A stretch of 20,000 nucleotides of DNA from an uncultured virus (IMG/VR IMGVR_UViG_3300026488_000245) (IMGVR_UViG_3300026488_000245), one strand, 5' to 3'; positions 88-20,000 are shown, counted from the first letter of the stretch. The notes: generated by a model from the sequence alone, not told the origin. Made by a program: numbers and translations.

Positions 88-1188
88 TTAATTTATCCCG
101 TAAAACCTCAAACCATTTCTAATACTCTCTTCTAAACTCCTTTTAGCTTTCCACCCCAATTCCTTCTCTGCTTTAGATGCATCACACTAAACTTCTGCTA
201 AATCTCCTGGTCTTCTTTCTACTATTTTGTAAGGAACTTTTTTTCAACTAACTTTTTCAACTAATCTAACCATTTCTAAAACACTAACTCCTCTACCAAC
301 TCATAAATTAAATACCTCAAAAAATCATTCTTTTTTTCAGACCTCTTTTAACTCTTCAGACCTCTCTCCACTCTTCAGACCTCTATCTTCTAAATATTTC
401 CACGCTTTAATATGTCCATCTACCAAATCCATTATATCTATATAATCTCTTACTCCAGTTCAATCTTTTGTAGGATAATCTCTGCCAAAAATTTTTAAAT
501 ATTCTAACTCTCATTTCAACACTTTCATTATATAAGGAAACAAATTATTTGGTATTCAGTTTGGGTCTTCTCATAAAAATCAAGAAGGATGTGCTCCAAT
601 AGGATTAAAATATCTCAAACTAATGACTCTAAATCAACTAAATCTAGCTAAATCTTGTAATATTTGCTCTATTATAAATTTTGTTCTTCCATAAGGATTT
701 GTTGTATTTCATACTGGATCAGTTTCTTTCAATCATCTTTTCAAAATAAAATCAGTTCATACTCTATTAATAGCATTGTCTGGTAAACTTGATATATCAT
801 ACACAGTAGCACTACTTGAAAAAATAATATTTTTAACTCAATATTTATTCATCAATTCAAATAAATTTAAACTTCAAGTTATATTGTTTTGAAAATATTT
901 CAAAGGCAATTCACAACTTTCTCAAACTGCTTTTAATCAAGCAAAATGTATTACTCAATCAAATTTATTTTCTTGAAAAACTCTTTCTAATCAATTTCTA
1001 TCTAACAAATCAACTTTATAAAACTTCGGTTTATATCATAAAATCTTTTTAATTCTATCTAATACTTCTATTTTTGAATTTGACAAATTATCAACTATAA
1101 CAGTCTTATAACCTAACTTTTCAAATTCTACTACTGCATGAGAACCTATATAACCTAATCAACCTGTTATAAGTAAAGTTTTTCACAT
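88..1188 (-). CDS. galE: UDP-glucose 4-epimerase (366 aa; TGA=Gly, one in-frame TAG)
   Basis: Motifs: MGKTLLITGGLGYIGSH (NAD-binding), VDNLSNS, VIHFAGLKAVGES, IFSSSATVY, NPYGRTK (YxxxK), LRYFNPIGAHPSG, EDPNGIPNNL, DYPTKDGTGVRDYI, RRPGDLAEV[TAG]CDASKAEKELGW. Many of the conserved Gly are TGA. Ends at TAA 90-88. Confidence 0.97.
336..384. repeat. Three-copy tandem repeat with 19-bp period inside galE
   Basis: TTCAGACCTCT at 336, 355 and 374. The second and third copies extend to ACTCTTCAGACCTCT (351-365, 370-384). Confidence 0.85.
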
Positions 1189-1278
1189 TTACTATCAGTT
1201 TTTTATTTTTATAAAAATCTTTATATTTTAATATAGAAAAATAATAAAAAAATTTTTATAAAAGTAAAATAAATAAAA

Positions 1279-2208
1279 ATGAAAAAAATTATTTTAGTAA
1301 CTTTTATTATATTTTTAAATTTTTCATTTTGATTTTTTGATTATATTTATAAAAATATAAATAAAAATAATTTTAAAAAAGAAACTATTTATGTATGAAA
1401 TTTAATAGAAAATTATTTAAATAAAAAAGTGAAAGACAATTATAAAAAAATAGAAAAATTATATCAAATAGAAAAAACTTTAGAAAAAGTTAAATAGAAA
1501 TATAAAAATAATAGATTCGTTTTTCAAGTAATAAATGAATTAGAAATTTATCTATATAAAGATTATTTAAACAAGCTTTGATTTGAAGAAATAAAAATTG
1601 AAAAAATTATTGACTGAGATACAGTAAAATATAGAAGTATTTTAACAAATAAAAAATGATATTTAAGAATGATATGACTAGATACACCAGAATCAAATCC
1701 TACTAGATTTTGATATATAGAATGTTTTTGAAAAGAAGCTAAAGAGCATTTAAAAAAATTGATTAAACATTGAAAATATTTCTTTATAGAATATGATAAA
1801 ACTCAATGATATAAAGATAAATATTGAAGAACATTATGATATTTAATAGAATGAATAATGTTTAAAAATTGAAAATTAAAATTAATTAATTTAAATTGAA
1901 AACAAATAAAAGATTGATATTGATAGGAATATACTTTCAATTTACCATATAAATATATGGAATCATTTAAAAAATATCAAAAATATGCTAGAAATAATAA
2001 TTTATGATTATAGTCGCCAAATACTTGTAATTGAAAAAGAAAGAAAATTAACAATTCTAAAAACAATCTTTTAAACTGTAATAGAAAAGTTTATTGCTAT
2101 CAATTAAAAACTTGTAATTTAGCTAAACAATATTTAAATAATTGTAATTTTTATTAGTTAGATAAAGACTGAGATTGAATACCTTGTGAAAAATTATGCA
2201 GAAATTAA
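1279..2208 (+). CDS. Secreted thermonuclease (SNase family) with C-terminal Excalibur Ca-binding domain (309 aa)
   Basis: Signal peptide MKKIILVTFIIFLNFSFG. SNase motifs IIDGDT, LRMIGLDTPE, ECFGKEAKEHL, DKYGRTLGY, YG[TAG]EYTFNLPYKY, GL[TAG]SPNTCNG. Excalibur-like CYQLKTC...LDKDGDGIPCEKLC. In-frame TAG at 1495, 1924, 2011 and 2155. Ends in TAA. Confidence 0.93.
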
Positions 2209-2232
2209 AATTCAATTATTTTTAATAAATTT

Positions 2233-3192
2233 TTAGCTTCACATTTTTAAAAGAAAACTTATATATGTTATATCAATAAAAAAGAAGAAAGCAAAAATAA
2301 AAGTTAATAAAAGTAAAAAATTAAAATATTGAAAACTATAATTTTTAAATTTTATATAAAAAACTAATAATATATAAATTACTGGTATAAGTAAAGTAAT
2401 TAATTCAGATATAAATAAATTGTTAAAATAATTAGTTAAAAAATCAACAACTAATTTATAATAAAAATTTAGAAATAATCAATAAATAAGAATGAATGAA
2501 AATATAAAAAATAAAGAAGAAAACATTTTTTTTAAAAATTTTAAATAATTTTTAAATGATATATAAATTATTGAAATACTTATTAATTGAAATAAAAATA
2601 TAAAAAATAACAACTTAGATATATCTATTCATTTTGAAATAAAAGACAACGAATTAAATATATAATCTTGTTTTGTTAATAAAAATCAAAAAAAAGCAAA
2701 ATTGAATAAATTAATTATAAATATAAATAAGTTTTCTCAAAAGCTTCATGTGTTAAATAAAGGGATTTTTATTTTTAACTTTAAAGGGAAAAACATATAT
2801 TTTAATCAATTGTTAGTTAATATATCTCATAATAAATGTCAAAAAATAAAAATAAAAGAAAAAATAAATTCATGTAATAATATTTTTTTAAATATTTCAT
2901 AATTAATAATTAGTCAAAGTTTAGTAAAAAATAAAAATAAAATTCAAAAAAATAGAAATAAGAACGACAATATAAAAAGTATAGAATGCGTTATTTTTCT
3001 ATGTGTAAAAAAATTATTAAAACTAAAAGTTTTTTTAGCAATCTTTGAATCGTTATGGTCTATATCAGGTAATAATGATAATAAAATTATTAAAGATAAA
3101 CTAATTATAGGAAAATAATTAAATTTTAATATAAAAAAATATGTTATAAAAAATAAAAAAACATTAAAAGATATATGCGAATTATATATCAT
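2233..3192 (-). CDS. YdjM-like membrane-bound metal-dependent hydrolase (319 aa)
   Basis: Extends the track ORF 2944-3192 through TGA. Motifs MIYNSH, SLLPDIDH, THRKITHS, GHLLGDILTNNG..FFP, FNTGSFGE, plus multiple hydrophobic helices. Ends at TAA 2235-2233. Confidence 0.85.
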
Positions 3193-3440: not shown

Positions 3441-5843
3441 TTAAATCTAAAATATTCAATTGAATATCTACATAATAATTATAAAAATAATTAATCTGAC
3501 AGAAAATTCTAAAAGAATTATTTGCAAACTTTCTTTTTTATCTAAATCCTTATTTCTTTTTAATTCTATTATTCATTCAAACAAATTATAAATTCAACTA
3601 ATTTTTAAAAATATTATTATCTATCAAATAAAAATTATGAAGTAAAATACTTTCATAAAAAGCATATTTCAAAAATTAAATACTGGTATGAAAAATATTG
3701 TTGGATAAACTGGCAAAAATTTTCACTCATCAGTATATTTATAGTATACTAAATATTTTGAATTTTCTTTTTTATTTTTATTTTCTAACTCTAAATATTT
3801 TTCTAATAATTCTCAATTAAAATTTGTGATATATCAGCTTCATAATAAATCTGAAAAAGACGTTTTTAAAAAATTCTAGTATTGTCTAGTCATCTTATCT
3901 TTATTATCTAAATATTCAAACTAAAACAAATTATTTAATTTTTGTGAATTACCATTTATAAAATATTTATCTAATAAATAATATTTAATATCTAAAGTAA
4001 TTCATAATTGTTTTAAATAATTATCATTGTAAATTAATCTTAATCATCATAATTTATAATCATAAATTTTATTTAATTCATTATAGTCTTTTACTATATT
4101 TTTTCAGTTAACAAATAGTATTAATTTTGGCTGTGCCTATATATAAGTATCCAAAAGATTTTTATCAAATAATTTTATCACTCAAGATAAATAATTTTTA
4201 TAATTTTCTAATATATTTCTATTTGATAATAACACAGTTCAATTATAATTTAATTGTTTATACTTATCGTTATCAATAATAATTTTATTTAAATCATACT
4301 ATGTTTTTACGTAAGCTAAATTATATTTTTTGTTATAAAATAAAAGGTATAAATAATTAAGTTTATAATCATATTTTGATTTAAATAATCTTAAAAAACC
4401 GTCAAAAATTTGTTTATCAATTAAATAATTATTATCGTCAATTTTTATAATAAAAGGTAATCAAAGTCAATAACAATTTTCTTCTCATATGTAACAAATG
4501 TTAGTATTCTTTCTTACATTTTTATATAAAATCATTTTTTTTATCTTTTCTTTAATTCATATTTTTTTTAGATTCTACTTATCAATAATAACTAAATTAG
4601 AATTTCTTAAACTTTTATAAACATCTCTTTTTATTTCTTCTATTTTTTTATTTAAATATTTTCTTATTTTTTTTCTTTTAATATTATCAATTCAAAATGT
4701 ATAATTATTGTGATTTTCTAAATACTATTCATATTTATTATCATAATAAATATTTTCTTTTCTAAATTTTTTTACTTTTATAATTTTTTCTAATCATTTA
4801 ATATTTTTTTTATATTTTTTAATAAAATTATTTATTGTAGGTTTTTCTTTAATAGAGAAATCAGAATTAACTAAATTAATGAAATAAGGAAAATAAAAAG
4901 AATTTGTTTTTACACTTATATTTCATATTTTTAAATTTGAATTTCAATTAAAAATTTTATCTATAAAATTTGATTGCATTATCTTTTTTCTCATAATCTC
5001 AGAAAAATTCACTTCTTGTTGATTTACTTTAAACATAAATGATAGAGTAGTATAGTAATACTATTTTGTTATAAATCAATAAATTCAATTATAAAAATTT
5101 ATTTGATTATCTTCAATAAAAAAATTATTAACTTTATTTACTAAATTTCTAAATTTACTATTATTTTCATAATAATATTTTTCTAAGTCATATAAAGTAG
5201 TTATTTTATATCAATTTATATATATACTTTTGTTATATATAAAAAATAAAAATAAAACTCATAAAAAAACAACAAATAATTTTCATTTATCAAAATATAA
5301 ATTCTTTAAATATTCTAATAAATTTTTTAACCTGATTATTCATAATTGAAATAAAGAAAAAACAATAAATATTCATATTCATTTATCTTGTAATTTATTC
5401 ATATCAAACTCTTTTTTTCATATAACACTCAAATAAGCCTCTTTTATTATAGATGAAAAATAGTAATAAAATGCTAAGATTTTTTTATCTAAAGATGTAG
5501 AACTAAAATATATATTTTTAACTTCTTCTTTTTTTATATAGTTAATAGCTATTATTAATCAAAATAATCAATTTAAAAAAATCGTTAATATAAAAATTAT
5601 TAAAGAAAATATGAAAATTAATCATAAAAAACTAAGCTAAATATTGTTGAATTTTAAAGATATCAGATTATAAAAAAAATTAGGGTCAATAAAAACTTTA
5701 CTTAAAGCATCTAATCAAAATCAAATTCAAATTATCTTTGATATTAAAATAAAAAATCAGCTAAATAAAAGATATATAACTTTAAATTTAGTTAAAATAA
5801 GCAAAACTAATAATATTCAAACAATATATATTCAAAAATTCAT
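3441..5843 (-). CDS. Large hypothetical membrane protein (800 aa) with N- and C-terminal TM segments around a soluble domain
   Basis: 2403-nt frame with no TAA. About 11 in-frame TAG and no TGG seen. Hydrophobic N-terminal helices and C-terminal helices (FYFIIFIG[TAG]IIIFLK). Confidence 0.8.
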
Positions 5844-5957: not shown

Positions 5958-8753
5958 ATGAATGATTTTCTAAGTGAAAAACTTTCAAAGATAAGAAGTG
6001 TATTAAATAATAATATTAGAAATAAAAACATAGATTTAAATAACATACTAAAAAAAATAGATGAAGATATTTAGAATCATAATTATCTATTTTTTGATAG
6101 ATTAATTAAAAAAATAGAAGATAGTTTAATTAAATGAAAAAATATTTTATTGCATTGAGATTATGATGTAGATTGAATTTTTTCTTCTATTTGATTATAT
6201 TTAATTTTAATTTATTTAAAAAATAAATACAAGTCAAATTCTGAAATTTATCTAAACATTAATAACAGATTAATTTGATATTGAAACGATATAGAAAAAA
6301 TTGTTTTTGAACGTGAAAAAATTTTGAATAAAAAAATAGATATTGTTATATTGTTAGACCAATGATGAACTGTAAAATATGATACTGATTTTTTAATAAA
6401 AAAAGATATCGTTGTTATAGACCATCATCATGCTACAAATAATTTTTATGAAAATATAAAAGATATTGATAAAGTAAATAAAGAAAAAATAGAATTTATA
6501 ATAGATAAATTAAAAAAATGAAATATAATTTATCTAAATTATTTTCTTTTAACTGACAGAGAAAAATTTATTAATTTTTTTGATTGAATAATAGATGAAA
6601 ATGAAATAAATAAATTACATTTTTGCGAAGAATGTAGTGCTACTACATGATGAATAATACTTTTATTTTCAATTTTTTTATACAAAAATTATTTTTATAA
6701 TGATGAAAACTTTAAAATTATTTTATTAACAAATTATATTCTTTGATATATTACTTTTATATCAGATGCATTTTGATTTAATGAAAAATATATAAATATA
6801 AAAATAATTGCTGAAAATTTAATTTTTTTATTAACTGAAAGATATTATTATTTTTTCAATATATTAGAAAAAAAAATAGAAGAACTCTGAAATATAAATG
6901 ATAAATTTCTTTATATTTTAAATAAATTAGATTTAACAAAAAAAGAAAAAAAATTAATCAAACATTTAAAAAATATATTTAAAAGTAAAGATTTAGATTG
7001 AAATAATAGTATTACAGAAAGAATATTTAATTTTAATGATTATATAATACATTGAGCATTTTCAAGCAGTAATCAAGATATATTTAACTTAATTTTTAAA
7101 AGAAAAACTCACTTAAATAATATCGAAAATTTTAAAGAAATAAATAATAATATTAATGAATTAGTTTTAAAAGAAAGAGAATTCTTAAAAATATATATTG
7201 ATTTATGCAAAAAACATTTAAAAGAAATAGAACAAAATAAAGAAAAAAATAAGATTTTTAAACAAATAGATGAATATTTTAATGTTAAGAATGAATATAT
7301 AAACAATAATAATAGAAAAGGTTATAAAAATAAAATAACTAATTGAAATAACTTTTTATTACACAATTTATTTTTTGAATTTGATTTTAATTTTGAAGAT
7401 GAAAAATTAATAGATTATATTTCTAATATTTTAAAATTTATTTTTTCATTTATAGAAGATTATTCAAATTTTTCTGTATCTATATGATTTAAATTAAATC
7501 CTTCAATTAATGCTTTTTGAAGAGTTTCTTTATGAAATTTATTTATATATTATCTTTTAAGTAAAAAAACATGATTTATAAAAAAAATTGATTTAATAAA
7601 TAATATAAGAAAGAAAGTACAAAGCACTTTTCTTATTGATTGCAATTCAAACAGCTGAGTAGAAAACATATATAAAGATAATTGAATAAGTAATTTTTAT
7701 AAATTATATTGAGAAAAAATAAACAATAAAAAAATATTAATTTGAAAATTAAATCATTTAGTTAAAAATTTTGATAATATAAAAATTTGAGTTTTTTGAT
7801 ATAAAATAAATGAAAAAAATTTAATTTATGATAAACTAGATATCTATTTATTTTATGTAAATAATAAAGAAAAAAATAAAATTTTTTCTATTTTAGATTT
7901 TGAAAAGATTAAATGAATTATCGAAGAGGTAATTTATAAAGAAAATGTTATTTTTAACTCTGCAAGATGAATTTATTGAATATTAGCAGCTAGATATTTG
8001 AATAAACATAATTTAGATATTGCTCTTGTTTGAGAATTATGAAAAAAATTTTTATGAGGTTCATGAAGAAGTAATATAAATATTGATATTAAAAAAATAA
8101 AATGAAAAGTAGAATTTAAATGACATTCAAAAGCATTTTGATTTAATATTAAATTTAATAATAAAGATGAAATATTAGAATTATTAAACAAATTTATTAA
8201 AAAAGAAAATATTATTCCAGAAGAAGATGAAACTCATAAGATAATTATTAATATTGAAGATATAATAGAAAAAGATATAAAAAATTTATTAGTAAAAATT
8301 AAATTACTAGAACTTTTTAACTATTCTTTAGTATTTACAGCTGATTTAAAAAAATTAAACAAATATAAAGATTTGTTTAAAATAAATAAAAATTGAGTTA
8401 CTTTAAATTATAATGATTACTTCATTTTTATTAGTAAAGATAATATTAAAAACTTTTTAGAAATTGCTTTATGAATAGAAAAAGAAATAATTTTTAAGAA
8501 TAATATAAATAAAAATAATATAAAAGTTGTATTATCATTTTTTAAAACTGATAAAGAATATAAATTTTTAGATTATACACCTTATTGAATAGATTATGAA
8601 TTTTATTCAAATAAAAATATTTATTCTTTTCTAAATAATAATATTTTTGTTGATTACGATTTATCTATTTTTGAACAAGAAAATATATACAAGAAAATAG
8701 AATTTCTTTTAAATAATATCAATAACATCAAAAAAATAAAATTTTTTATTTAA
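5958..8753 (+). CDS. recJ: RecJ-like single-stranded DNA exonuclease, DHH/DHHA1 family, with large insertions (931 aa)
   Basis: Motifs in canonical order: LHGDYDVDG (GDYDVDG at 6156-6176), NRLIGYG, ILLDQG, VIDHH (about 6420), ITFISD, IGFKLNPSINAFGR, NNIRKKVQ, GIYGILAARY, GSGRS, KGHSKAFG. One in-frame TAG (6072). Ends in TAA. Confidence 0.88.
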
Positions 8754-8760: not shown

Positions 8761-10029
8761 TTAATAATCATATTGATTCATTTTTATCTTTTGTAATTTT
8801 TCATATTCATCTTTCTATAAGTTAAACTACCGAGGATATTTTCACATAATTTCAACTTCTCATTCTTTTCATCATTCATTATATATTTCATATCATGCTT
8901 CTACTTTTTGTATTAAATCCTTATAATTTTTTTCTATCTGCTTTCTAAAATTTAAAGCTTCTCTTAATAAAATTTTTTTATACTCTTCTTTTAACTATTT
9001 TAAATAATAATCTCTAATCTATTTTATAAACTCATAATAAGTATTATAAGCATATAAATAAACTTTTTTATTTCAACTTGTTTCAAACTCTTCTTTCATC
9101 ATATTTAACTAATAAGGATTTAATAAGATTGCTAACTCATTATTAAAATATCAATATAGATTACCGTGTATACTTCAATTAGCTAATTTTTTTTCTGTTA
9201 TTGCTAATTTTTTATTCTATTTATCTTTTAAATATTCTAATAATTCCTTATCTACATATCTTTTATCAATATGTTTATCTTTTAATTTTTTATTAATATA
9301 TTCAACTTGCTTTTCATATAATTTATCATAAATTGACAATATAAAGTCATAATTCTTATTTTCTTCATAAATTTTAGGACTATATCAAATAACATACTAT
9401 ATTTTTGTAAAAATTTTAGACAAAAAAGTAGAATAATATTCTAAATTTTCAATAGTATTTACATTCTATAAATCAGAATATATAACTTTTTTTCATAATT
9501 TCGTAATTTTTTTATAAGTATTATCTACCTATTTTATTCATTCTAATATGTTTTTTAAAGATATAGAAACATCTTTATATATATCATAATATGGGTCTAT
9601 ATAAATATATTCCATATGAATTATATTGCTAAACTATAATGAATCAGAATAATCTATTAAATCAGAAAACTTTATTTGTGATAAATAATTTTTTGTATAT
9701 TTTAAAATATCATATTTATTGTATTTTTCGTTTAACTATATATTTTCATCTGACTGAATTTCTCAATTAATTTCTCAAAGCAATTCTGCTTCTTCCTCTT
9801 CGGAAACAGCATATGGATCAAAAGCAAATAAAGGTAATTTAAATGCAGTAAATAAATAAAATAATATAATTCATATACTAGCTCATTTTCAAATTAATTT
9901 TTCTAATCTATTCATCAGTTTATCATCTAATATAAAAATAAAACTTTTTTTATTATAATTTTCTAGGATATTTTGAATTTCATAGTATTCTTTTACTAAC
10001 TTTTTTATATCTTCTTTTTCTTTTCTCAT
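8761..10029 (-). CDS. Hypothetical protein with a single N-proximal hydrophobic segment (422 aa)
   Basis: TAA-free frame from ATG 10029 to TAA 8763-8761, convergent with recJ (7-nt gap). About 11 in-frame TAG. Hydrophobic stretch GASIGIILFYLFTAFKLPLFA. Confidence 0.8.
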
Positions 10030-10166: not shown

Positions 10167-11741
10167 ATGAATATATTCATTTTTTTAATCTTTATTTTAT
10201 TTTTCTCATTTTGATTTTCAAATTGATATTATCAAGAATTAGAAAAAATTATAGAGCATAAAAATATTTTAAACAATTTAAAATCTAACACAAATACTTG
10301 AGTAAATTTAAAAAACATATTAAAAAATTTTTTAAATTTATTTGAAAAAAATCAAATTTTAGTTGATTCTTTATCACAAGAAGAAATTATATATTTATAT
10401 ATGTTAAAATATAAATGATTTGATTTTGTTATTACTGATACAAGCGACAAATTTTCTCAATTTATTTCATTTTATTCAAATCTAAAAAATTTTCATTTAT
10501 GAATAAAACAATTATTAGCTGTGTCTTATAAATATTGAAATTATGAAGCTGTAAAATCAAAAATTAGCAAAAATCGAAAAAAATAGAAAGAAGTTTAGCA
10601 ACTTAATGAAAAAACTTTATTTATACCTTGAATACTTTCAAGAGAATGATGATATTTTAAAAATTGAATATTAATTTAGCCTTGAAATTGATGAGTTTGA
10701 CAATTAATATATTATTGTGATACTATTAATAATTATGATATATATTTTAACGAAAAAGAAGTTTTATATAAAATTAGTAATAGTTTATGAAATAAATTTA
10801 ATTTTATATTTTATAGACCTACTTATTTATAGTGAAGATTAGATAAATATATTTATTGATATGATTTAAAATGTAACAAACAAAAAGTACAATATAAAGA
10901 TTTTTCATTAAATAAAGATGATTTGATAAAATTATGAAAATATATATACCAAGCTTATAAAGAATATATATCACAAAAAAAATGATTAGCAATAGAATTA
11001 GATAATTATATTTGATTAATTGATTCTTTTTATGAAGAAGAAAATGATAAGTACGAAAGAATTGCTATAGATTTTATTTGAAATATGCAATTAATTAACT
11101 TAATAAGTTTTTTGTATCATAAATGATTATTTTTATATAGTAATACTTTATTTAATACTATATAGGAATGAAATAATTATTGAAAATGAATAAAGTATGT
11201 TTTTAAAAATATTAAATCGAATTGAATTGATTTAGTTATAGAAAAAGAATTATTTAAAAAAGATTTATAGAATATATTAAATAATTTAACAATAAGTAAC
11301 CAATGATTTTATAAAATTAATGAACATAATTTTAAAAAAATTTGAATTTACGAAAAAGATTATATATCATTAGTTTTATCTTTCTTTTATTGAGCTGTAG
11401 CATGATTTTATAATTGATTTTGAAATACAAAAGAGTATATTTTTATTCATGATTACTGAATTACTTTACAAAAAAATTTATGAGAACAAATATTTTGAAA
11501 AGAAAATTATTTAATACTATGAAAAATTGCTAAAGACTGATGAAAAGTTCTTATACCTTCAAAACAAAATTGAATTTTTTAGGTAGTAATGTCTTTTTAT
11601 AAAAAAAATTGAAGAAAAATTTTTATAAATAACTTATATTCAAATTTTATTTTAAGAATTATTTATAAAAGAAATTTGTTTTTATGAATAATGAATCTTT
11701 ATTCCCTTTGAATATATGGTTTTAATTATATTAATCAATAA
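10167..11741 (+). CDS. Secreted protein, probable lysozyme-like peptidoglycan hydrolase (524 aa)
   Basis: Signal peptide MNIFIFLIFILFFSFG. IPGILSREGG (candidate catalytic Glu at 10644), PGNGGVGQL, AGFYNGFG and GKIAKDGG..SKQNG resemble lysozyme-superfamily motifs (E, GxxQ, YNG). About 7 in-frame TAG. The ORF is solid; the function is inferred. Confidence 0.6.
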
Positions 11742-11746
11742 ATAAA

Positions 11747-12037
11747 ATGAAAATTTATAAAAAGAAAAAAAAAGAAATTATAGAAAAAGATTTAAATACT
11801 TGAAAAACAAAAGTTTATTATAAAGAAGAAAAAAAATTAATTTGAATAAAGTGTGATTTTTGTTGAAGATTTTTTAAATGAAATTTTTGAAATCCAGTTA
11901 CTTCATTTAACATAGAGTTTTGATTTTGAAGTGAATTTGATTTAGAAGTATAGCATATAGATATTTGTGATGATTGTGCTAGAAAAATACTTTTAAAAAA
12001 TTGAAAAACTATAAAAAGAAAAAGAAAAATGTTTTAA
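11747..12037 (+). CDS. Small zinc-binding protein with two CxxC motifs (96 aa)
   Basis: KCDFCG...IEFGFGSEFDLEV[TAG]HIDICDDC. TAG at 11951. Ends in TAA. Confidence 0.8.
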
Positions 12038-12074: not shown

Positions 12075-13259
12075 ATGCTTGTCTATCCTTTTGAAAATGA
12101 AAAAGTCGATAATTAGATAAAACAAATTAAATTAAATATAAATTTACTTGGTAATTATGCTTTAATAAATATTTTTCATTTAAATAAAATATTTTTTAAA
12201 CAATTTTTTCTAAATAAAAATAATTTTTTAAATTGATTAAATTTAGAATTTGAAATAGAATGAGAAAAACATAATGTAATTATTAAAACAGAAGAAATAA
12301 TTAATCTCTATAATGAATTAAAAAAATGATTTATCATACAAACTATAAAAAAAAATGACTTTATTATAGAAATCATTTTTTGAATTCCTTAGTTACTAAA
12401 TTCAGACAAAATTTCTAAATTTTTAAATTGAAATTTATGAATAAACAATTTAAAAATAAACAATTCAATGATTTTTTATAAAAAAAATTGAGAAATAAAA
12501 TTAATTCAAAATTGAATTTATGAAGATAATTTTAGTGAAATAAATTAGTGAATATACCATAGTTATTTAGAAGATAATGAAAATTCTATTTTATTTTCTG
12601 ATTTAAATAAAATAAAGCAAAATTACAGTATTGAAATAAAAAAAATGTTTAATTTTCTTTTTTTTGATTTTTTGTTTTCTAGTATCATAGAAGAAATATG
12701 AACAACTATTTCTGACGATAATAAAGCAATATATAAATTTTTTCAAAGAATAATAAAAGAAAATACCAAACAAAATATTTTTGTAAAAATTATGTCAATA
12801 GAAAATTAGTATAAATTTAATATTTTATTTTTTAAAACATATAAAGATTTATTTAAAAAAATTAATTTGAAGAAAAATAAATATATAAAATCTATATATT
12901 ATTTTGATTTAAAAAATTTTATTGATAAATAGATAACAAAAAATAAACAAGAATTTTTATTTAATTTTTATAAAGATTTATTAAAAAAAAATTTAAAAGA
13001 TTTTAATCAAATAAATTTATTGTTTTTAGAAACTTATGAAAATGACATTTATATAATTTCATTACAAAAAATCTTTATTTATATATATAATTATATATTA
13101 AATTCAAAAATATCTTGATGAGTTCTTACAACACCTATTGAATTTGATGAAAAAGACTTTGCTAAAAAAATTAATGAAAAAAGTTTTAATATTCTTTCTA
13201 AAGAATTAAAAATATATTTTAATTTAGATAATATTAGTGTTATTTATAAATTTAATTAA
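12075..13259 (+). CDS. Hypothetical protein (394 aa)
   Basis: TAA-free frame with 5 in-frame TAG (e.g. GIP[TAG]LL, IN[TAG]GIY). No recognisable motif. Confidence 0.75.
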
Positions 13260-13267
13260 TTAGAATT

Positions 13268-13588
13268 ATGGATGATTTTAATAAAGAATTAATAAAAACT
13301 TATAAAAAGCAAAGTTGAAAAGAATGAGTATTTACACATTATTAGAAAAAAAATAAAAAGAAAATATGATTATATCTTTCATTTTGAATGATTTTTAATT
13401 TTATTGTTTCTTGAATTATTACTTATATTATATATAAAATTGTAACGGAAAATATGGATAATGTACGGGTATTTACAATATAGTAGCTACTATTTTTTAA
13501 TAATTTTTATTTATTTTGGTTTATTTATTTATTTCGGAAAGAAGCAAATAGAATTGATAATTTACACAATAAAAAGAATAAAAAATAA
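13268..13588 (+). CDS. Small two-TM membrane protein (106 aa)
   Basis: Two hydrophobic segments. Contains TAG x3, TGG x1 and CGG x2. The stop overlaps the next start (TAATG). Confidence 0.75.
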
Positions 13589-15366
13589 TGGATAAAACGT
13601 TACTTAATTATAAAAAGAAAATTATATGAAAAAAATTTTTATTCGTATTAATATGAATTTTCTTTATTTAGTAGTTAATTATTTTTTGAACAAATAAATT
13701 ATTAAATTTTTTATTTAATCAAAGAATTGACGTTTATCTAAATGAAAATAAATTTATTACTAATGAAACTGTTAAACAATTCGATATTGATATATGATAT
13801 AAAAGCACAATATTGAAATCGTTATTAGATTAGTGATATATTCTAAAAATATCTGATTTAATTAGCGTTTATTCTAATTGATATAAAGAAAAAGAATTAT
13901 GATGATTATTAAAATTTAAAAATAAAAATATAAAGCAATATTATTTTATTAATAAAAAGAATTTTGAAAAAACATATTTTCTTGATAATCAAAACGAATT
14001 GAGATATATATAGGAAGAGTTTAATTTAATTAATGAAAAATGAAATATAAATTATTTTCTTTCTAATTAGTATTGATTTGATGAAAAAAAATTAATAGAT
14101 AAAAAATATATAGATGAGTATTTTATGAACTTATTTGATAAATTAATTATATGATTTCCTGTTTTTTATTAGATAAAACCTAATTATATTAATATAAGTT
14201 GACTTAATATAATTGACGAATATAATAATATATGAACATGAAATTCTTCTTTAATCGCTATAAGAGATTTCATTTTTTTTAATGATAATTCAACATTAAT
14301 ACTATGCTGAAAATATGAAAAAAATAAAAATAATAATTTATACTATATAAAAAAATTGGATGTTTATAATTCAAAAATAAACAATAATTCTTTTTATTGC
14401 AATAAAAAAGAATATAATTTTCAGTTAATTTTTCCTAAATTTATATTAAAACAAGATAATCAAAATAAAGAAGAAATTAAATATGAATTAAACAAAGAAT
14501 TTAAAAAGTTTGTTAAAAATTTTTTTGATTTGAAATTATGATATGATTTTTGATTTATAATAAAAAAATCAAATATATGATTATACTGAAAAGTAATAAA
14601 TAATATTTATGAATGATTAAAATAGACTAAATTTTGAAATTATATTTAGTGAAATTCTATAAATGAAAGAAAAGCAATCTTAGATTATTTTTGAATTATT
14701 GAAGAACCTGAATTTGTTAAATTAAATTTTGAATTAACATGAAAAGAAAACTTAAAAGAAATAAATTGAAATTATATTTTATTTTTAGACAAAACAGATG
14801 AAAATATCAAAAATGAAATTAAAGATAAAATTGAACAATATTTGATTTTTATACTTTTTAATAAACATAAAAATGAATAGATTCAAGATTATATAAAAAT
14901 TTATAATTATAGAAAAAATTTTTTAGAGAAAAATAATGAAAAATGAATATGAAATGTTATTGAAAATTTTAATGAAAACATTAATGAAAATAACGAGTTA
15001 ATAAAAAAAATATTTCAATGATGAAATAAAATATTTTATACTAAATTAAATACAAAAGTAATATCTGATGAATGAACCTCTATTTGAATATTAATAAAAT
15101 ATTTTTATGTAGATGATAAATGAAAAATTAAAGATAAAATACAATTCTAGTATAACAAAGATATAAATTTATATATAGATAAGATTCCAGAATAGAAAAT
15201 AAATCTCTATTCTATTGGCTGTTTATAGGTTTCATTTATTTTATTTAACTTTTTTCTTGTTATATGATATAAAATTTTAGTATTATTTTTTGTTTTAAGT
15301 ATTTTAGTATTTATAGTTTCTATGCATAGAATAAAAGAAGATATTTTAAGTGAAGATAAACAATAA
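13588..15366 (+). CDS. Hypothetical membrane-anchored protein (592 aa) with N-terminal TM and C-terminal TM segments
   Basis: Coupled to the upstream gene by TAATG. FLFVLIGIFFI[TAG][TAG]LIIFG at the N-terminus and a hydrophobic C-terminus. About 12 in-frame TAG and no TGG seen. Confidence 0.8.
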
Positions 15367-15533
15367 ATAAAAACTTATTGTTTTATCTTTATTTATAATT
15401 GAATTACTAGCATATAAAAACACTTTATTAAAAATCGTATAATAACACATTTATGTTTTATATTAATATTTTTTTACTTTTTTAAAAAAATATATATTAT
15501 TTATAAACCTTTTTACAAAATAAAAATAAAAAA

Positions 15534-16622
15534 ATGAAAAAATATTTTCTCTTCCTTTTATTTATATTTTTGTTAAACTTTTGATTTTGATATTATAATA
15601 AGATTATTTTTACTAAAATTTATGAACCAGAAAAAGAAGATTGCCAGCAAATTATAGATTTACTTAACAATAAAAGAAAATTTATATTTTATAATGTTAA
15701 GAATTTTAAAAAAGCAAAAGAGAAAATTAATTTTTGTTTAAATTGGCAAATATCTGAAAGAGAAAAGAAAATAGCTAAAGCAAAGATGATTTTAATAACA
15801 GATAAAAAAAAATTAGAAAGAATTAAAAAATATTATTTTAAAAAATGAATAAAATTATATATTTTATCTGATAAAAAATGGTATGAATTAAAGAAATTAA
15901 TATATCTTTATAATCTTTTATATAATGAAAATCTAAAAGAAATAATTAAAGACCAATATATAATTTCAAAATTTCAACATTCAATGTTAATAAAAACAGC
16001 AAAATTATATAACAAATTTATTGATATTTATGTGAAAAAAAGAAATTATTTTTTCATAAAAAATAAAATTAAGCAAAATCCTTTAGAATGACGAAAAAAA
16101 TATAGATATAATTTTAAAAAATTAATTGAGTCTGATTGAACAAAATGTACAGTATATGTTTTGGCTGAAATGTTGTGTTTTTTTGACACTTTTATTTCTA
16201 ATATTGAATTTTTAAAATGAGAAAGTAAAAAAATTGATATTAAATGTAATGCAAAAAATGATTATTATGAAGTTTTTAAAGAAGCAGACGAATACAAAAA
16301 ACAAATTGATTTAAAAAGAAAAATAGTTTGATTAACAGCATATGATGAAGTTAGTTATTTATATAGATTTTGATTTTATAATATATATTTAAATAAAACT
16401 TTATATATTAGATTAATTAATAAAAAAATAAACTTTGTTAATTGAATATCTTTAAATTTAAAATTATGACATGCATGAATGTCATTATGTAAAATTTTTG
16501 GTAAATGCTATATGTATTGGCCAGATATTTGAAAATATGAAAAATTGAAAAAAAGAAGAAAATTTTTATGAAAAACTGTAAATATTAAAAATGATTTTAC
16601 AGTATTTTTAAAAACTAATTAA
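15534..16622 (+). CDS. Secreted hypothetical protein (362 aa)
   Basis: Signal peptide MKKYFLFLLFIFLLNFGFG. TAA-free frame with several Cys. Trp is encoded by TGG (15744, 15879, 16518) and there is no in-frame TAG. Confidence 0.8.
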
Positions 16623-16677
16623 TTTCTATATAAAAATTCTATATTATAAAATATATTTATATATTTAAAAATAAAAA

Positions 16678-16985
16678 ATGAGAGCATTTAAAGCAATGGT
16701 TTTATTTTATTTTACATTATGATTATTAGCTACTATTGCTAGAACGTTAGTTAATAAAAATTGAAAAAATAAAAAAATAGAATCGAAAGAAAAAAAAGAA
16801 AAAACAAAAAAAATATTTAATACATCAATTATTAATTTTTTAATTTCATCCTTAGCATTTAGTATATTTTAGGTTTAAAGAAGTTTCGTAAAAAGAAAAA
16901 AAATTCAGAATGAAAGAAGTCATTTAAAAATAATATATTAGATTTTGTAAAAAGAGATGCTGAATTAAAAAAAATTAAAAAGTAA
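16678..16985 (+). CDS. Small two-TM basic protein, apparently frameshifted near 16867-16870
   Basis: The ATG 16678 frame stops at TAA 16876-16878 (66 aa). The -1 frame continues LGLKKFRKKKKNSEGKKSF...KKIKK to TAA 16983-16985, just before the terminator. Confidence 0.5.
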
Positions 16986-17006
16986 TTTTTAAAATTAAAA
17001 CATTTT

Positions 17007-17032
17007 AAAAACCGCTTTTTAGCGGTTTTTTT
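17007..17032 (+). terminator. Intrinsic (Rho-independent) terminator, potentially bidirectional
   Basis: AAAAACCGCT-TTTT-AGCGGTTTTT(TT): perfect 10-bp stem with a GC core and flanking A and T tracts, about 20 nt after TAA 16985. Confidence 0.85.
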
Positions 17033-17111
17033 ATTTTATAATACATATAAAAATACATTTTTTATTTTAAATTATAAAATAAAATTTTATTTATCTATTT
17101 GTTTTTAAAAA

Positions 17112-20000
17112 ATGTAGAAAAATTTTCTAAAAATAGATATTAATTTATTGAAAAAATATTTTAATTTAAACGAATTAAATGAAATATACAATTTCTTAGA
17201 AAAAAAAAATGAACCTTTATATCTGCTTAACTTTTTAATTTATATTGATTCATATAAAAAATTAAAGGAATAGAATGAAAAATATTCAGAAAAATATAAT
17301 ACCTTTTTATAGAGATTATGAATAGATTGAACTGATACTTTTAAAAATGCTTTTTTTCGTTATGATGACATTAATAAATATATATGAATATTAATATGAC
17401 ATTATAATAATGATATTTTATGATTACCAAAAAATATATATAAACAAATTTTTTCTTGATGATTTTCTTTTTCTCAAAATATAAAATGAGAAATTTATAT
17501 TTCTTGATTTGACAAAAATATAGAAGAAGAATTATCTAAAACTTTTTTCTACATAAAAAATTTTTTTATGAATAATAAACATATTCATAAAAGCAAAGTA
17601 AAAATAAAATTAAAAGAAGAAAATAAATATTTATTTTTATTTGATTGAATGTATGATTTTTGAAACTATTTATATTTTGCTGAAAAAAAATAGAAAGTAA
17701 AATTTACAGAAAAATATAAAAATAGTTTTTCAGATTCTTTAGAAAAAGAAATTAATTCATATATTTTATGAAATTTATTAGTTGGGCATATATTATTATG
17801 AAAACTACATTGAAAAAATATCTATCCTAATATATTTAATATCTCTTTAGAATGAGATAAAGTTAATTTAATTAATAATTTTTTATTTTTATGATTTGAT
17901 AGTTATTTCTTGTATTTATGAGAGATACTAAAACATTTTACTTATAATAAATACTTTACATTTTTATGAGAAAGAAAAATAGAAAATTTTTATTTTATAT
18001 TTGAAAATGAAATAAAAAAATTTTTAATGAAAATAAATAATGATGAAAGTATTGAAAATGAAAGTATAAATACAGAAAATATAAATTTTTATTTAGATTC
18101 GAATATTTATTTGTTCAATCATATATTAGAAAATAATGAAATATTTAAATCAGACGAAATAAAAACATTATTATTGTTTCTATATATTGAATTATTAAAT
18201 TGAAAATCTTTAGAAAAAATATATGAAAAATATATATATAAAATATATTCTTCAGAAGAAATTCAAAAATTATTTAAAATAAATAAAAAAGAAACTGAAT
18301 TAATTAATTTAATATTTATTTTAATTTATTTATTCAAAAAATGAAAAATTTCTTCTTGATGATTATTTAATGATTTTATTAAAAAATTTAAAAAAATTAT
18401 TTGAAAAAATGAAGAGAAAGAAAAAGAAGAAAATAATAATTTAATAGAAAAATTCATTAAACAAATTTCAATAATAGAATATATTAATTTAAATAAATAT
18501 TTTAAAAAATTAAAAGAATTAAATAAAGTCGCAAATAAACTTGATTCTTTTGAATCTAACATTATAAATAATTTTTATAAATTATATAAAGAAAATAAAA
18601 ATAAATTTAAAAAAATCGTAGATTTTATTGAAATTACTTACTGATTATTTTATTCACATTTAATATGAATTATACAAAACGAAGAAAAAGATAAAAAAAT
18701 TTTTAAAGAAGAAAAAATAAATAATTTATTTAATAATTTGAAAATAAATAAGATAGTATGAATAAATATCAATGATTACAAAATATTAACTGAAATTGAA
18801 GAAAAAATATATGAAAATAATTTAGAAACTTTTCTTTTAAATGCAGAAAATCATTTAAACAAAGATATATATTTATTACAGAAAATCAGATTATGATTAC
18901 TTAATGAATGATATTTAACCGAACTGATAAAAAAATATTTATTAAAACTTTTTGAATACAGAAAATTTATAAAGGAATAGGACTGATTTACATTATATGA
19001 AAGAATAAAGTATTCTATTAGTTATATTATTTATATGCTTATTTTGATAAGTTTAAATAAATACGATGAATTAAAAAAATTCAATTATATAAATGAAGAG
19101 TAGAAAGAAGAAAATATTTATAATTTATTTATAAGCAATTGAAATGTATGAACTAAATGAAATATTACTTTATTTAAAGACATAACTGAATTGATTAAAG
19201 ATTTAATGAAAGAAAAAAAATATATGAATACTGTTTTATCATTAATAAAAAAATTATTATACAATAAAATAGAATTTGAAAAGATAGATAGTAAAAAAAA
19301 CAATAATAAAGATATTAGTAATTATAATATTTTTTTAAAGAAACTATTAATTATAGAAAAACTTTTATATGATGAAAATATAACAGAAGAAAAATTTAAA
19401 AATTATATCGAAAAAAATATAACATATGAAAAAAAATATAAATTAAAAATTAAAGATAAAGATAATTTTAAAAAGAATATTTTTAGTGAAAACTTAATAT
19501 ATAAAATAATTGCTTTAGAGAATCATGATTGTACATTTAAATATATATCTTGAACTAAAGATTTAAATAAATGAATAAAAGATATTAAAAGATTAAATAG
19601 TGTAAAATTATATTCTGATTCTAATATTAACGATGAGTCAATAATGAATAAAATAATTAATAAACAAATTGATAAAATTATAATCCAAAATCTAAATAAC
19701 AATTTTATAAATAATAATTCATTTGATAGTAAAACATTTTATTTATCATATTTATATTATAACGAAAATGATACAAATAAATTTAAAAAAATAATTATTT
19801 CAAAAATAAAAAAGTACAATATACTTTATTCAGAGTCTCATTTAGAAAATTTTTTCAATTAGATAAAAAAAATAAGTTATATCTGAAAAATTATAAATTG
19901 AATGTATATAAATAGCTATTTTATTGAATGAAATCAATTTCTAAATGAATTTATTAAAAATTTTAAAATATTAAAATATGATGAAAGAGTTTTTGATTAG
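17112..20000 (+). CDS. Very large hypothetical protein (at least 963 aa), probably truncated at the right edge
   Basis: ATG 17112 followed directly by TAG (M[TAG]KNFLKID). No TAA in frame to the window end. About 8 in-frame TAG and no TGG seen. Includes track ORFs 19191-19553 and 19644-19862. N/K/I/E-rich with no recognisable motif. Confidence 0.8.

What the first reader, a model, noticed from the sequence alone, without database searches (positions are those of the whole stretch)
88..20000. Apparent novel genetic code: TAG read as tryptophan on top of TGA=glycine, leaving TAA as the only stop
Seen in sequence (hand counts, approximate): about 65 in-frame TAG codons in about 6,300 codons (about 1%), spread over most genes on both strands. 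These frames run for up to 900+ codons without TAA, and all 14 complete genes end in TAA. TGG occurs only about 6 times (about 0.1%), far too few for Trp, while Gln (CAA) and Tyr (TAT) remain common. From family knowledge, TAG falls at Trp positions: the SNase C-terminal GLW motif is GL[TAG]S (2011), and galE GDLAEV[TAG]CDASKA (189-187) aligns with E. coli GDLPAYWADASKA. Contexts such as FFI[TAG][TAG]LI, GIP[TAG] and NPY[TAG] also suit Trp. Inference: with TGA already taken by Gly, AT pressure drove TGG to TAG instead of the usual TGG to TGA. I know of no numbered translation table with TGA=Gly plus TAG=Trp; the TAG recodings I know in phages and prokaryotes are to Gln or Pyl.
Basis: partly seen in the sequence, partly recalled or inferred. 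Interest (0 to 1): 0.97.

Follow-up and report, generated by a model that had tools for sequence, protein, structure and literature searches.

The report
Bacterial code with one stop codon
This very AT-rich piece of DNA, from a relative of the Absconditabacteria and Gracilibacteria, appears to read two of the three stop codons as amino acids (TGA as glycine, TAG most likely as tryptophan), leaving TAA as the only stop, a combination that I could not find described for any organism.

Summary
The window (15.5% GC) holds 13 long reading frames. They are open only if both TGA (302 in-frame) and TAG (64 in-frame, in 11 of 13 genes) are read as amino acids. TAA never occurs in-frame except as the last codon of all 12 complete long genes and of two small ORFs.

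TGA as Gly is the known code 25, and GalE places the DNA among code-25 bacteria.

Four lines of evidence make Trp the best reading of TAG:
- TAG sits at the one near-invariant Trp of the SNase family (W in 115 of 120 homologs).
- Sibling GalE proteins in the same 90% cluster show W in 6 of 6 where the window has TAG.
- A substitution-matrix likelihood over five alignable TAG columns gives W 11.8 bits, Y 7.8 and F 3.8.
- TGG has almost vanished (6 codons, 0.10%), while TAG (1.03%) fills the Trp budget.

A sibling strain keeps a stop-like codon at the same place in 4 of 4 testable genes.

Not shown: the decoding tRNA, the release factors, the raw reads, and whether the replicon is a chromosome or a mobile element.

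TAG=Trp has a precedent in Balanophoraceae plastids (table 32). My searches found no report of it combined with TGA=Gly, or of it in a bacterium. The scan has an unchecked note of TAG=Trp in a phage on other DNA.

The parts
88..1188 (-). galE (UDP-glucose 4-epimerase), 366 aa; 22 TGA, 17 GGN, 1 TAG (codon 334, bases 189-187), 2 TGG
   Evidence: Pfam Epimerase/GDP_Man_Dehyd, E 1e-47 to 1e-49. PDB GalE, E 6e-105. Best genome match is 65% identical and carries 19 in-frame TGA. The TAG column is Y8 F3 W1 in 12 relatives and W in 6 of 6 siblings of the same 90% cluster. Its composition is an outlier at 27.4% GC.
1279..2208 (+). Secreted SNase-family nuclease with a C-terminal Excalibur domain, 309 aa; 21 TGA, 4 TAG (codons 73, 216, 245, 293)
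   Evidence: Pfam SNase 5.7e-18 and Excalibur 1.7e-4. Alignment A1 with 120 homologs: codon 245 column W115 R5; codon 216 column H62 F28 Y23 W2; codon 293 column R15 K10 with 78 gaps; codon 73 is unaligned.
2233..3192 (-). YdjM-family membrane protein, 319 aa; 11 TGA, no TAG, no TGG
   Evidence: Pfam YdjM 1.7e-18; codon counts.
3441..5843 (-). Orphan membrane protein, 800 aa; 41 TGA, 11 TAG
   Evidence: Open frame. No Pfam, PHROG or NCBIfam match. Matched in 0 of 141 genomes of the order. TAG positions.
5958..8753 (+). RecJ-like DHH/DHHA1 protein, 931 aa; 41 TGA, 1 TAG (codon 39)
   Evidence: Pfam DHH 6.5e-9 and DHHA1 3.2e-6. phrog_2484 RecJ-like. Weak PDB RecJ match, with the TAG opposite Ile in a low-confidence stretch.
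8761..10029 (-). Orphan protein, 422 aa; 16 TGA, 11 TAG
   Evidence: Among 1.84 billion representatives, the only matches are fragments of itself and of a sibling, and both stop at TAG sites.
10167..11741 (+). Orphan secreted protein, 524 aa; 42 TGA, 7 TAG
   Evidence: Matched in 0 of 141 genomes.
11747..12037 (+). Small zinc-ribbon-like protein (phrog_5435), 96 aa; 8 TGA, 1 TAG (codon 69)
   Evidence: PHROG 1.6e-7. The TAG aligns with W in Bacillus phage Mgbh1 gp43 and with Y in an uncultured phage.
12075..13259 (+). Orphan protein, 394 aa; 12 TGA, 5 TAG
13268..13588 (+). Small two-helix membrane protein, 106 aa; 3 TAG (two adjacent, inside a hydrophobic helix), 1 TGG, 2 CGG
13588..15366 (+). 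Orphan membrane-anchored protein, 592 aa; 33 TGA, 12 TAG
   Evidence: No homolog of similar length. Shorter hits are code-4-translated fragments of itself and of a sibling, and they end just before TAG codon 346.
15534..16622 (+). Orphan secreted protein, 362 aa; 13 TGA, no TAG, 3 TGG
   Evidence: The sibling copy differs at 13 of 362 residues, and none of these is at a W.
17112..20000 (+). Orphan protein of more than 963 aa, running off the window; 37 TGA, 8 TAG
16678..16878 (+). Small ORF, 66 aa, with TAG two codons before its TAA
   Evidence: TAG could be sense or the stop here.

Best explanation
The replicon uses a genetic code in which TGA is glycine, TAG is tryptophan and TAA is the only stop.

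Shown here. TGA and TAG are both in-frame sense codons in nearly every gene. TAA alone ends genes. TGA falls where relatives have Gly. TAG falls at aromatic or Trp positions, including the one near-invariant Trp available for testing. TGG and GGN are nearly gone: TAG is 64 of 70 TAG+TGG codons, and TGA is 302 of 329 Gly codons.

Inferred history. The lineage belongs to the code-25 bacteria (class JAEDAM01), which lack release factor 2 and read UGA with tRNA-Gly(UCA). Extreme AT pressure made TGA the main Gly codon. Abundant tRNA-Gly(UCA) then threatened to misread UGG, and AT pressure also disfavoured TGG, so Trp moved to TAG.

Inferred mechanism. A tRNA-Trp copy with anticodon CUA (one base away from CCA) is charged by a TrpRS that tolerates anticodon changes. 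Tolerance of this kind is already implied by the CGA/CGG=Trp reassignment in Absconditabacteria. Release factor 1 would be either restricted to UAA or outcompeted at UAG.

The tRNA, the TrpRS and the release factors were not available for study.
For: TAG and TGA are sense codons:
- There are 64 in-frame TAG and 302 in-frame TGA in 13 frames of up to 963 codons.
- In-frame TAA occurs only at gene ends (12), against 445 and 569 in the other two frames.
- The longest TAA-free run is 964 codons, against at most 180 in shuffles.

TGA is Gly:
- At the 22 TGA codons of galE, 199 of the 252 aligned codons in relatives are TGA or GGN.
- The PDB alignment fits G.

Lineage:
- The galE best hits are 56-65% identical genes with 8-28 in-frame TGA in genomes of the same class. 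Matches were found in 354 of 401 genomes.

TAG is Trp:
1. SNase codon 245 lies in a column with W in 115 and R in 5 of 120 homologs. It is the only W-conserved column of the family.
2. In 6 of 6 GalE sequences of the same 90% cluster, from other contigs, W stands where the window has TAG.
3. In the zinc-ribbon protein, TAG aligns with W in one homolog and Y in the other.
4. A BLOSUM62 likelihood over 5 columns gives W 11.8, Y 7.8, F 3.8 and H 2.8 bits. With the sibling column in place of the relatives' column it gives W 14.8 and Y 5.7.
5. TGG accounts for 0.10% of codons, against 0.2-1.2% in relatives' loci. Poisson P is at most 7e-6 for 6 or fewer TGG codons at a rate of 0.4%. TAG accounts for 1.03%.
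6. Of 63 TAG sites, 7 lie in membrane-helix-like stretches, like F (65 of 539). This is unlike Y (9 of 450, Fisher p 0.0014), K, R, N, E and H, and marginally unlike Q (3 of 97, p 0.05).
7. A genuine TGG of galE sits in a column (TAT/TAC 8, TTT 2, TGG 2) that looks like the TAG column. A Y-rich column is therefore no argument against W.

The TAG codons are conserved and are not assembly noise:
- A sibling strain with 3.6-18.6% amino-acid divergence has its called fragments end at the window's TAG in 4 of 4 genes.
- The same fragments are on record from JGI/IMG, ENA and Logan assemblies.
Against: - Only 5 of the 64 TAG codons could be aligned to homologs. The other 59 lie in orphan proteins or unaligned regions.
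- One aligned column (Excalibur, codon 293) is R15 K10 with no aromatic residue. Codon 216 is mainly H/F/Y (W in 2 of 120). The GalE column in the 12 more distant relatives is mainly Y.
- The sibling W in GalE comes from code-4 translations, in which both TGG and TGA print as W. I did not see the DNA.
- No tRNA lies in the window, and no release-factor or TrpRS gene was available.
- TAG is unevenly spread. RecJ-like has 1 in 932 codons, and YdjM and the gene at 15534 have 0. This would also fit a mobile element with its own suppressor tRNA.
- With TAG as W, Trp use would be 1.13%, about twice that of the most AT-rich relatives (0.4-0.6%).
- In two ORFs, TAG lies 1-2 codons before the TAA, so some use of TAG as a stop cannot be excluded.
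Confidence: 0.85

Rival explanations
1. TAG is a sense codon but encodes another residue, most plausibly tyrosine. A tRNA-Tyr GUA-to-CUA change is the classical amber suppressor. Phenylalanine or histidine are further possibilities.
For: - The GalE column in 12 relatives is Y8 F3 W1.
- SNase codon 216 is H62 F28 Y23 W2.
- The zinc-ribbon column has one Y.
- Y is second in the likelihood ranking, at 7.8 bits against 11.8 for W.
Against: - TAG occupies the SNase Trp column, where none of the 120 homologs has Y, F or H.
- Siblings of the same 90% cluster have W in GalE, 6 of 6.
- TAG sites lie in helix-like hydrophobic stretches far more often than Y does (7 of 63 against 9 of 450, p 0.0014).
- Trp would be left at 0.10% of codons.
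- Tyr already has the AT-rich TAT codon (414 uses).
Confidence: 0.06
2. The recoding belongs to a mobile element and not to the cell. On this reading, the window is part of a large phage, plasmid or island of a code-25 host, and the element carries its own TAG suppressor tRNA. This is what TAG-recoded phages do.
For: - Of the 13 genes, 8 have no accepted family match and a ninth (11747-12037) matches only a phage family of unknown function. The four that were searched have no homolog in relatives or in the large libraries beyond fragments of this DNA and its sibling.
- Two genes hit only PHROG families.
- TAG is rich in the orphans and rare in RecJ-like, YdjM and galE.
- At 15.5% GC, the window is well below every relative's locus seen (21-41%).
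- The scan holds unchecked notes of a phage reading TAG as Trp and of phages using TGA=Gly on other DNA.
Against: - No capsid, portal, terminase, tail or conjugation family was found in the 10 proteins scanned against PHROGs or the 13 scanned against Pfam.
- No match in the viral contig collection.
- TAG also occurs in the cell-type genes galE and SNase, at conserved positions.
- TGG and GGN depletion is uniform across genes on both strands, except in galE.
Confidence: 0.2
3. The DNA says TAG but the mRNA says UGG. A-to-I (or A-to-G) editing of the middle base would restore a normal Trp codon, so the code itself is unchanged.
For: It would give Trp at every TAG, and so fits the alignment evidence equally well. 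Editing of an amber codon to a Trp codon is known in hepatitis delta virus (recalled, not checked here).
Against: - Sixty-four sites show no shared flanking context. The base after TAG is T24 A26 G8 C5, and the preceding codons are varied.
- No bacterial system is known to edit mRNA on this scale (recalled).
- The parallel replacement of GGN by TGA points to a change in decoding.
Confidence: 0.03
4. The TAG codons are not read at all. On this view the genes are pseudogenes, or the TAGs are sequencing or assembly errors.
For: TGG to TAG is a common nonsense mutation. The galE site alone could be read this way, since siblings have W there.
Against: - TAA is excluded from 6,196 in-frame codons, while TAG appears 64 times.
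- Frames stay open for up to 963 codons.
- The same TAG positions are kept in a sibling strain that is 4-19% divergent, in 4 of 4 genes.
- The same fragments occur in three independent assembly sources.
Confidence: 0.01

Closest known systems
NCBI translation table 25 (SR1/Absconditabacteria and Gracilibacteria; GTDB class JAEDAM01): UGA = Gly
   Same: - In-frame TGA falls at Gly positions.
- The nearest galE genes come from genomes of that class and carry in-frame TGA.
- Low GC and many orphan membrane or secreted proteins.
   Different: - In table 25, TAG is a stop, and relatives' loci use it so: 31 of 119 ends of frames of 120 codons or more. One example was read by eye. Here TAG is in-frame 64 times and ends no long gene.
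- TGA is the dominant Gly codon here (92%), against roughly half or less in most relatives.
- GC is 15.5%, below every relative's locus seen.
NCBI translation table 32 (Balanophoraceae plastids): UAG = Trp
   Same: Both are extremely AT-rich genomes in which TAG accumulates in-frame at Trp positions and TAA does nearly all termination (passages of PMC10268348 read).
   Different: - Table 32 is the code of a 15-20-kb plastid genome of a parasitic plant that depends on imported factors, and TGA is not Gly there.
- This is a bacterial-type replicon of at least 87 kb in which TGA is also reassigned.
CGA/CGG = Trp in Absconditabacteria (Shulgina and Eddy 2021, PMC8629427)
   Same: - Same lineage and the same amino acid: Trp gains a codon other than UGG in a low-GC genome that reads UGA as Gly (passages read).
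- Five of 120 SNase homologs print R at the invariant Trp, as that reassignment would predict.
   Different: - The captured codon is a stop codon (TAG), not an arginine codon.
- CGA and CGG are nearly absent here (5 codons).
TAG-recoded phages and elements (code 15, TAG = Gln; Borges et al., bioRxiv 10.1101/2021.08.26.457843, seen only in a search listing)
   Same: TAG is read as sense across many genes of one replicon. Suppressor tRNAs are the usual means.
   Different: - Gln scores -2.1 bits over the aligned columns, against 11.8 for Trp.
- No phage hallmark genes were found.
- TGA is recoded as well.
[quoted passage not shown] 2025, PMC11903333; abstract read)
   Same: One stop codon (UAA), with UAG and UGA both reassigned.
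   Different: - Ochre is synthetic. It needed an engineered RF2 and tRNA-Trp, and it keeps UGG for Trp.
- The present case would be natural. It would have to rely on RF1, since the lineage lacks RF2 according to passages of PMC13695967.

Membership tests
Code 25 (UGA=Gly) organisms | In-frame TGA at glycine positions of conserved proteins | tested here: met
   At the 22 TGA codons of galE, relatives have TGA (117) or GGN (82) in 199 of 252 aligned codons. The GalE and SNase alignments fit G.
Code 25 (UGA=Gly) organisms | TAA and TAG both act as stop codons | tested here: not met
   TAG is in-frame 64 times and ends none of the 12 complete long genes.
Code 25 (UGA=Gly) organisms | tRNA-Gly(UCA) present and release factor 2 absent | not testable with these tools
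   No tRNA lies in the window, and no genome is held for it.
Code 25 (UGA=Gly) organisms | Phylogenetic placement in class JAEDAM01 | tested here: inconclusive
   Only galE could be compared. The best matches (56-65% identity) are genes with in-frame TGA in that class. No tree was built, and galE is a compositional outlier in the window.
Table 32-type reassignment (UAG=Trp) | In-frame TAG at conserved Trp columns | tested here: met
   The SNase column is W in 115 of 120 homologs. GalE siblings have W in 6 of 6. W ranks first over 5 columns. Only 5 of 64 sites were testable.
Table 32-type reassignment (UAG=Trp) | TGA remains a stop; plastid genome | tested here: not met
   TGA is in-frame 302 times. 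The gene content and the galE relatives are bacterial.
Table 32-type reassignment (UAG=Trp) | A Trp-accepting tRNA with anticodon CUA, or another decoder | not testable with these tools
   No tRNA in the window. The rest of the contig could not be fetched.
TAG-recoded phage (code 15) | TAG aligns with Gln | tested here: not met
   Q scores -2.1 bits against 11.8 for W. Q appears in 1 of 120 and 2 of 42 sequences in two columns and in none of the others.
TAG-recoded phage (code 15) | Phage structural or packaging genes on the replicon | tested here: inconclusive
   None was found in this 20-kb window. The other roughly 67 kb of the contig were not seen.

The most novel reading that the evidence does not exclude
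A lineage of hydrothermal-vent bacteria within the UGA=Gly clade has reassigned a second stop codon across its whole genome (UAG to Trp). It would then be the first natural cellular organism I can find described with UAA as its only stop codon. This implies a release factor 1 that no longer acts on UAG. It also implies a tRNA-Trp(CUA)/TrpRS pair that is naturally orthogonal to the CCA anticodon rule. UGG would have been abandoned because the abundant tRNA-Gly(UCA) misreads it.
Probability: 0.6. Interest if true: 0.93.

Novelty: new variant of a known kind. Interest (0 to 1): 0.88.

Why it matters
All bacterial stop-codon reassignments listed in the papers I read affect UGA alone (Shulgina and Eddy; gTranslate; the KACI screen of about 2.7 million assemblies).

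A bacterium that has given up two of three stop codons would matter in several ways:
- It shows that the code can be compressed to a single stop in nature, which so far has been achieved only by engineering (Ochre).
- It offers a natural RF1 with altered specificity and a natural UAG-decoding Trp pair for genetic code expansion.
- It gives a test case for how one reassignment (UGA=Gly) forces the next (Trp leaving UGG).

There is also a practical point. Public gene calls for this DNA are wrong. The protein collection holds it as code-4 translations, with Gly printed as Trp and the genes cut at every TAG. Such organisms are therefore nearly invisible to protein-based surveys.

Tried and rejected
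Fetching more of the genome:
- No genome is held for the window.
- An exact 52-mer of the window was absent from the viral, genome and metagenome contig collections.
- I searched for the EF-Tu motif GHVDHGKTT written with both Gly as TGA. It found 3 ordinary code-25 genomes (27-30% GC) in genome contigs and nothing in metagenome contigs.
- The protein collection shows that the DNA lies on contigs of 87,307 and 87,337 bp, with a sibling on 19,978 bp. I could not fetch their DNA.

Looking for the same code in relatives:
- rpoB (TIGR02013) was found in 140 of 141 genomes of the order of the closest galE relative. The 150 listed matches carry only TGA inside, or no stop at all; 413 further matches were not shown.
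- One galE with an internal TAG (G008) proved to be an ordinary stop in a standard-code genome.

Homologs of TAG-rich orphans:
- None of similar length for 13588-15366.
- 0 of 141 genomes for 3441-5843, 10167-11741 and 11747-12034.
- None in viral contigs for 8761-10029 or for part of 13588-15366.
- Only self and sibling fragments for 8761-10029 among 1.84 billion representatives.
- No NCBIfam match that passes its cut-off.
- No paralogs within the window.

Other attempts:
- The look-up of sequencing runs listed three DNA runs of hydrothermal vent metagenomes. Their word shares were 1.00 (possibly the source), 0.34 and 0.09, and none was laid. No RNA holder was listed.
- Mean hydropathy around TAG sites did not discriminate between residues. 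Only the fraction in helix-like stretches did.
- RecJ codon 39 aligns with Ile in one weak PDB match. I left it out as unreliable.
- SNase codon 73 is unaligned, with 106 of 120 gaps.
- Earlier notes of this scan hold nothing on this genome or on look-alike stretches.

Full report
**What is there**

The window is 15.5% G+C. Under the standard bacterial code, or under code 25, it breaks into short pieces. If TGA and TAG are both read as amino acids, it resolves into 13 long frames on both strands that fill the window. Twelve are complete and one runs off the end.

In these frames I count 6,196 codons:
- 302 TGA and 27 GGN.
- 64 TAG and 6 TGG.
- 12 TAA, each the last codon of a complete gene.

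The contrast with the other frames of the same genes is stark:
- TAA occurs 445 and 569 times out of frame but never inside a frame.
- TAG occurs 63 times in-frame, and 181 and 73 times out of frame.
- The longest TAA-free run is 964 codons, against at most 180 in 50 shuffles.

TAG is therefore tolerated by selection as an ordinary codon, and TAA is not.

**What the genes are**

Four genes have clear families:
- galE.
- A secreted SNase-family nuclease with an Excalibur domain.
- A YdjM membrane protein.
- A RecJ-like DHH/DHHA1 protein.

A 96-aa zinc-ribbon-like protein matches a phage family of unknown function.

The other eight genes match no Pfam, PHROG or NCBIfam family, apart from three marginal hits far below cut-off. 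Four of them were also searched for homologs. Nothing was found in the order of the closest relative, in the viral contigs or in the large protein libraries, apart from fragments of this same DNA and a sibling. No tRNA or other known RNA lies in the window.

**Lineage and TGA**

The galE protein was searched over 401 genomes of the class that holds a Gracilibacteria genome reached through an EF-Tu pattern. It matched in 354 of them. The best matches (56-65% identity) are genes that themselves carry 8 to 28 in-frame TGA.

At the window's 22 galE TGA codons, 199 of the 252 aligned codons in 12 relatives are TGA or GGN. So TGA=Gly, the known code 25, is the background.

What is unusual even for that clade is the degree. 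TGA makes up 92% of Gly codons, and GC is lower than in any relative's locus I saw (21-41%).

The relatives use TGG for Trp (0.2-1.2% of codons) and TAG as a stop. Over the order of the closest relative, rpoB was found in 140 of 141 genomes. The 150 listed matches have only TGA inside, or no stop at all, and 413 further matches were not shown. I found no genome of the reference set that shares the TAG habit.

**Meaning of TAG**

Only five TAG codons fall in columns that can be aligned to homologs.

1. SNase codon 245. W in 115 and R in 5 of 120 homologs. This is the only Trp-conserved column of the family. The five R are what one expects from relatives that read CGA/CGG as Trp but were translated conventionally.
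2. SNase codon 216. H62 F28 Y23 W2.
3. Excalibur codon 293. R15 K10, with no aromatic residue among 42 aligned sequences.
4. galE codon 334. Y8 F3 W1 in 12 relatives.
5. Zinc-ribbon codon 69. W in Bacillus phage Mgbh1 gp43 and Y in an uncultured phage.

I computed a likelihood in which each column is scored by BLOSUM62 odds. It gives W 11.8 bits, Y 7.8, F 3.8 and H 2.8, with every other residue negative.

The strongest single addition came from an exact look-up of the window's own called fragments in the protein collection. The galE fragment that stops at the TAG clusters at 90% identity with six sequences from other contigs that read on. All six have W at that position. With that column in place of the relatives' column, the likelihood is W 14.8 against Y 5.7 bits.

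There is a caveat. These are code-4 translations, in which TGA also prints as W. TGG is one change from TAG and fits the aromatic column. TGA is two changes away and would put Gly where no relative has it. If the sibling codon were TGA, W would still lead, at 8.3 against 3.2 bits.

Three independent lines agree:
- TGG is 0.10% of codons where relatives have 0.2-1.2%. Poisson P is at most 7e-6 for 6 or fewer TGG codons at a rate of 0.4%. TAG is 1.03%. Gln would also fit numerically (1.57% + 1.02%), but that would leave Trp missing.
- **Location in the protein.** Of 63 TAG sites, 7 lie in membrane-helix-like stretches. The rate matches F, L, I and M. It differs from Y (9 of 450, p 0.0014), K, R, N, E and H, and marginally from Q (p 0.05).
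- **A real TGG for comparison.** One TGG of galE sits in a column (Y8 F2 W2 by codon) just like the TAG column. A Y-rich column is thus what a Trp of this organism looks like.

The share of the new codon is nearly the same for both amino acids: TAG is 64 of 70 (91%) for Trp, and TGA is 302 of 329 (92%) for Gly.

**Conservation and reality of the TAG codons**

A sibling strain on a 19,978-bp contig differs from the window by 3.6% to 18.6% of residues, depending on the gene. In 4 of 4 genes where a called fragment can be compared, the fragment ends exactly at the window's TAG. The codon is therefore kept while the surrounding protein changes.

The same fragments are on record from JGI/IMG, ENA and Logan assemblies. 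The DNA is held by three runs of hydrothermal vent metagenomes (the fullest holder may be the source).

**How it most likely works**

*Shown:* the codon usage, the positions of TGA and TAG, and the termination pattern.

*Taken from papers:*
- Code-25 lineages lack RF2 and carry tRNA-Gly(UCA) (gTranslate, passages).
- A U34 tRNA-Gly(UCA) could misread UGG (Shulgina and Eddy, passage).
- Absconditabacteria are predicted to have moved part of their Trp to CGA/CGG, which implies a TrpRS that tolerates anticodon changes (same paper).

*Inferred:*
- Under extreme AT pressure, TGA became the main Gly codon.
- UGG then became both mutationally disfavoured and error-prone.
- A tRNA-Trp copy with anticodon CUA (one base from CCA) captured UAG.
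- RF1, the only class-I release factor left, either lost activity on UAG or is outcompeted there.

Traces of the passage remain. At one galE column, 10 of 12 relatives have TGG and the window has TTG. The conserved RecJ-like and YdjM genes have almost no Trp codon of either kind.

**What remains open**

- *Chromosome or mobile element.* The many orphans, the uneven spread of TAG and the very low GC would also fit a large mobile element of a code-25 host with its own suppressor tRNA. Against this, no phage or conjugation family was found. Nothing matched in viral contigs. The cell-type genes galE and SNase carry TAG at conserved positions.
- *RNA editing.* Editing of UAG to UGG would mimic the result. 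The varied sequence context of the 64 sites speaks against it.
- *TAG as an occasional stop.* In two ORFs, TAG lies one or two codons before TAA, so occasional use as a stop is not excluded.

**Comparison with what is known**

- TGA=Gly is table 25.
- TAG=Trp is table 32, the plastid code of Balanophora and probably Thonningia. These genomes are up to 88% AT and also terminate almost only with TAA (passages of PMC10268348).
- The combination has no NCBI table.

I searched full text for:
- TAG/UAG with tryptophan and Gracilibacteria or Absconditabacteria.
- 'Only stop codon' with UGA and glycine.
- JAEDAM01 with stop codon.
- UAG reassignment with tRNA CUA in bacteria.

None of these searches found a report of the combination.

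Three papers list only UGA reassignments and Arg or Thr sense-codon changes in bacteria, in the passages I read:
- The Codetta screen.
- The gTranslate paper.
- A 2026 preprint that screened about 2.7 million assemblies.

The preprint's full result table was not available to me and could hold such a call. The nearest engineered counterpart is the E. coli strain Ochre, with UAA as its sole stop (abstract).

**Verdict**

- TAG is a sense codon: probability about 0.97.
- TAG means Trp: about 0.9 given that it is sense.
- It is the code of a cellular genome and not of an element: about 0.7.

It is a new variant of a known kind of event (stop-codon reassignment in an AT-rich genome), with an unprecedented outcome for a bacterium.

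Noticed in passing
window 88-1188: galE is a compositional outlier. It is 27.4% GC, against 13-18% for the other 12 genes. It holds 17 of the window's 27 GGN codons and 2 of its 6 TGG. Either it was acquired recently from a less AT-rich code-25 relative, or it is under stronger constraint. It is also the gene on which the lineage assignment rests.
   Followed up: partly
alignment A1, column of SNase codon 245 (proteins P0008, P0009, P0021, P0024, P0028): Five of 120 SNase homologs print R at the otherwise invariant Trp. One is named as Absconditabacteria, and two are clearly code-4 translations. This is what the published CGA/CGG=Trp reassignment predicts, and it suggests these database proteins are mistranslated.
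   Followed up: partly
whole window; proteins P0121-P0144: Public protein collections hold this DNA as code-4 translations. Every TGA glycine is printed as W, and the genes are cut into fragments at each TAG. The proteins of this organism are therefore effectively missing from protein databases.
   Followed up: yes
window 10167-20000: Seven consecutive same-strand genes encode secreted, membrane-anchored or large soluble proteins. Six have no accepted family match and the seventh (11747-12037) matches only a phage family of unknown function. None was found outside this DNA and its sibling strain in the three that were searched. Function unknown; this could be a lineage-specific surface or interaction module, or part of a mobile element.
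   Followed up: partly
window 3449-3451 (second-to-last codon of gene 3441-5843) and 16870-16872 (ORF 16678-16878): In two ORFs, a TAG lies one or two codons before the terminal TAA. TAG could still end translation here, or these may be ordinary C-terminal Trp residues.
   Followed up: no
GalE siblings P0137 and P0138 against the window, residues about 263-310: The sibling GalE proteins of the same 90% cluster differ from the window's in one block: the lineage-specific insertion and the stretch after it. Elsewhere they are nearly identical. This suggests recombination or rapid change in that loop.
   Followed up: no
window galE, alignment column 623: Where 10 of 12 relatives have TGG (Trp), the window has TTG (Leu). 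This may be a trace of Trp loss while TGG was being abandoned.
   Followed up: no
window 13343-13345, 13481-13486, 13669-13674: Adjacent TAG-TAG pairs occur twice, both inside hydrophobic helices, at the end of gene 13268-13588 and at the start of gene 13588-15366. The two genes overlap by one base (13588).
   Followed up: no
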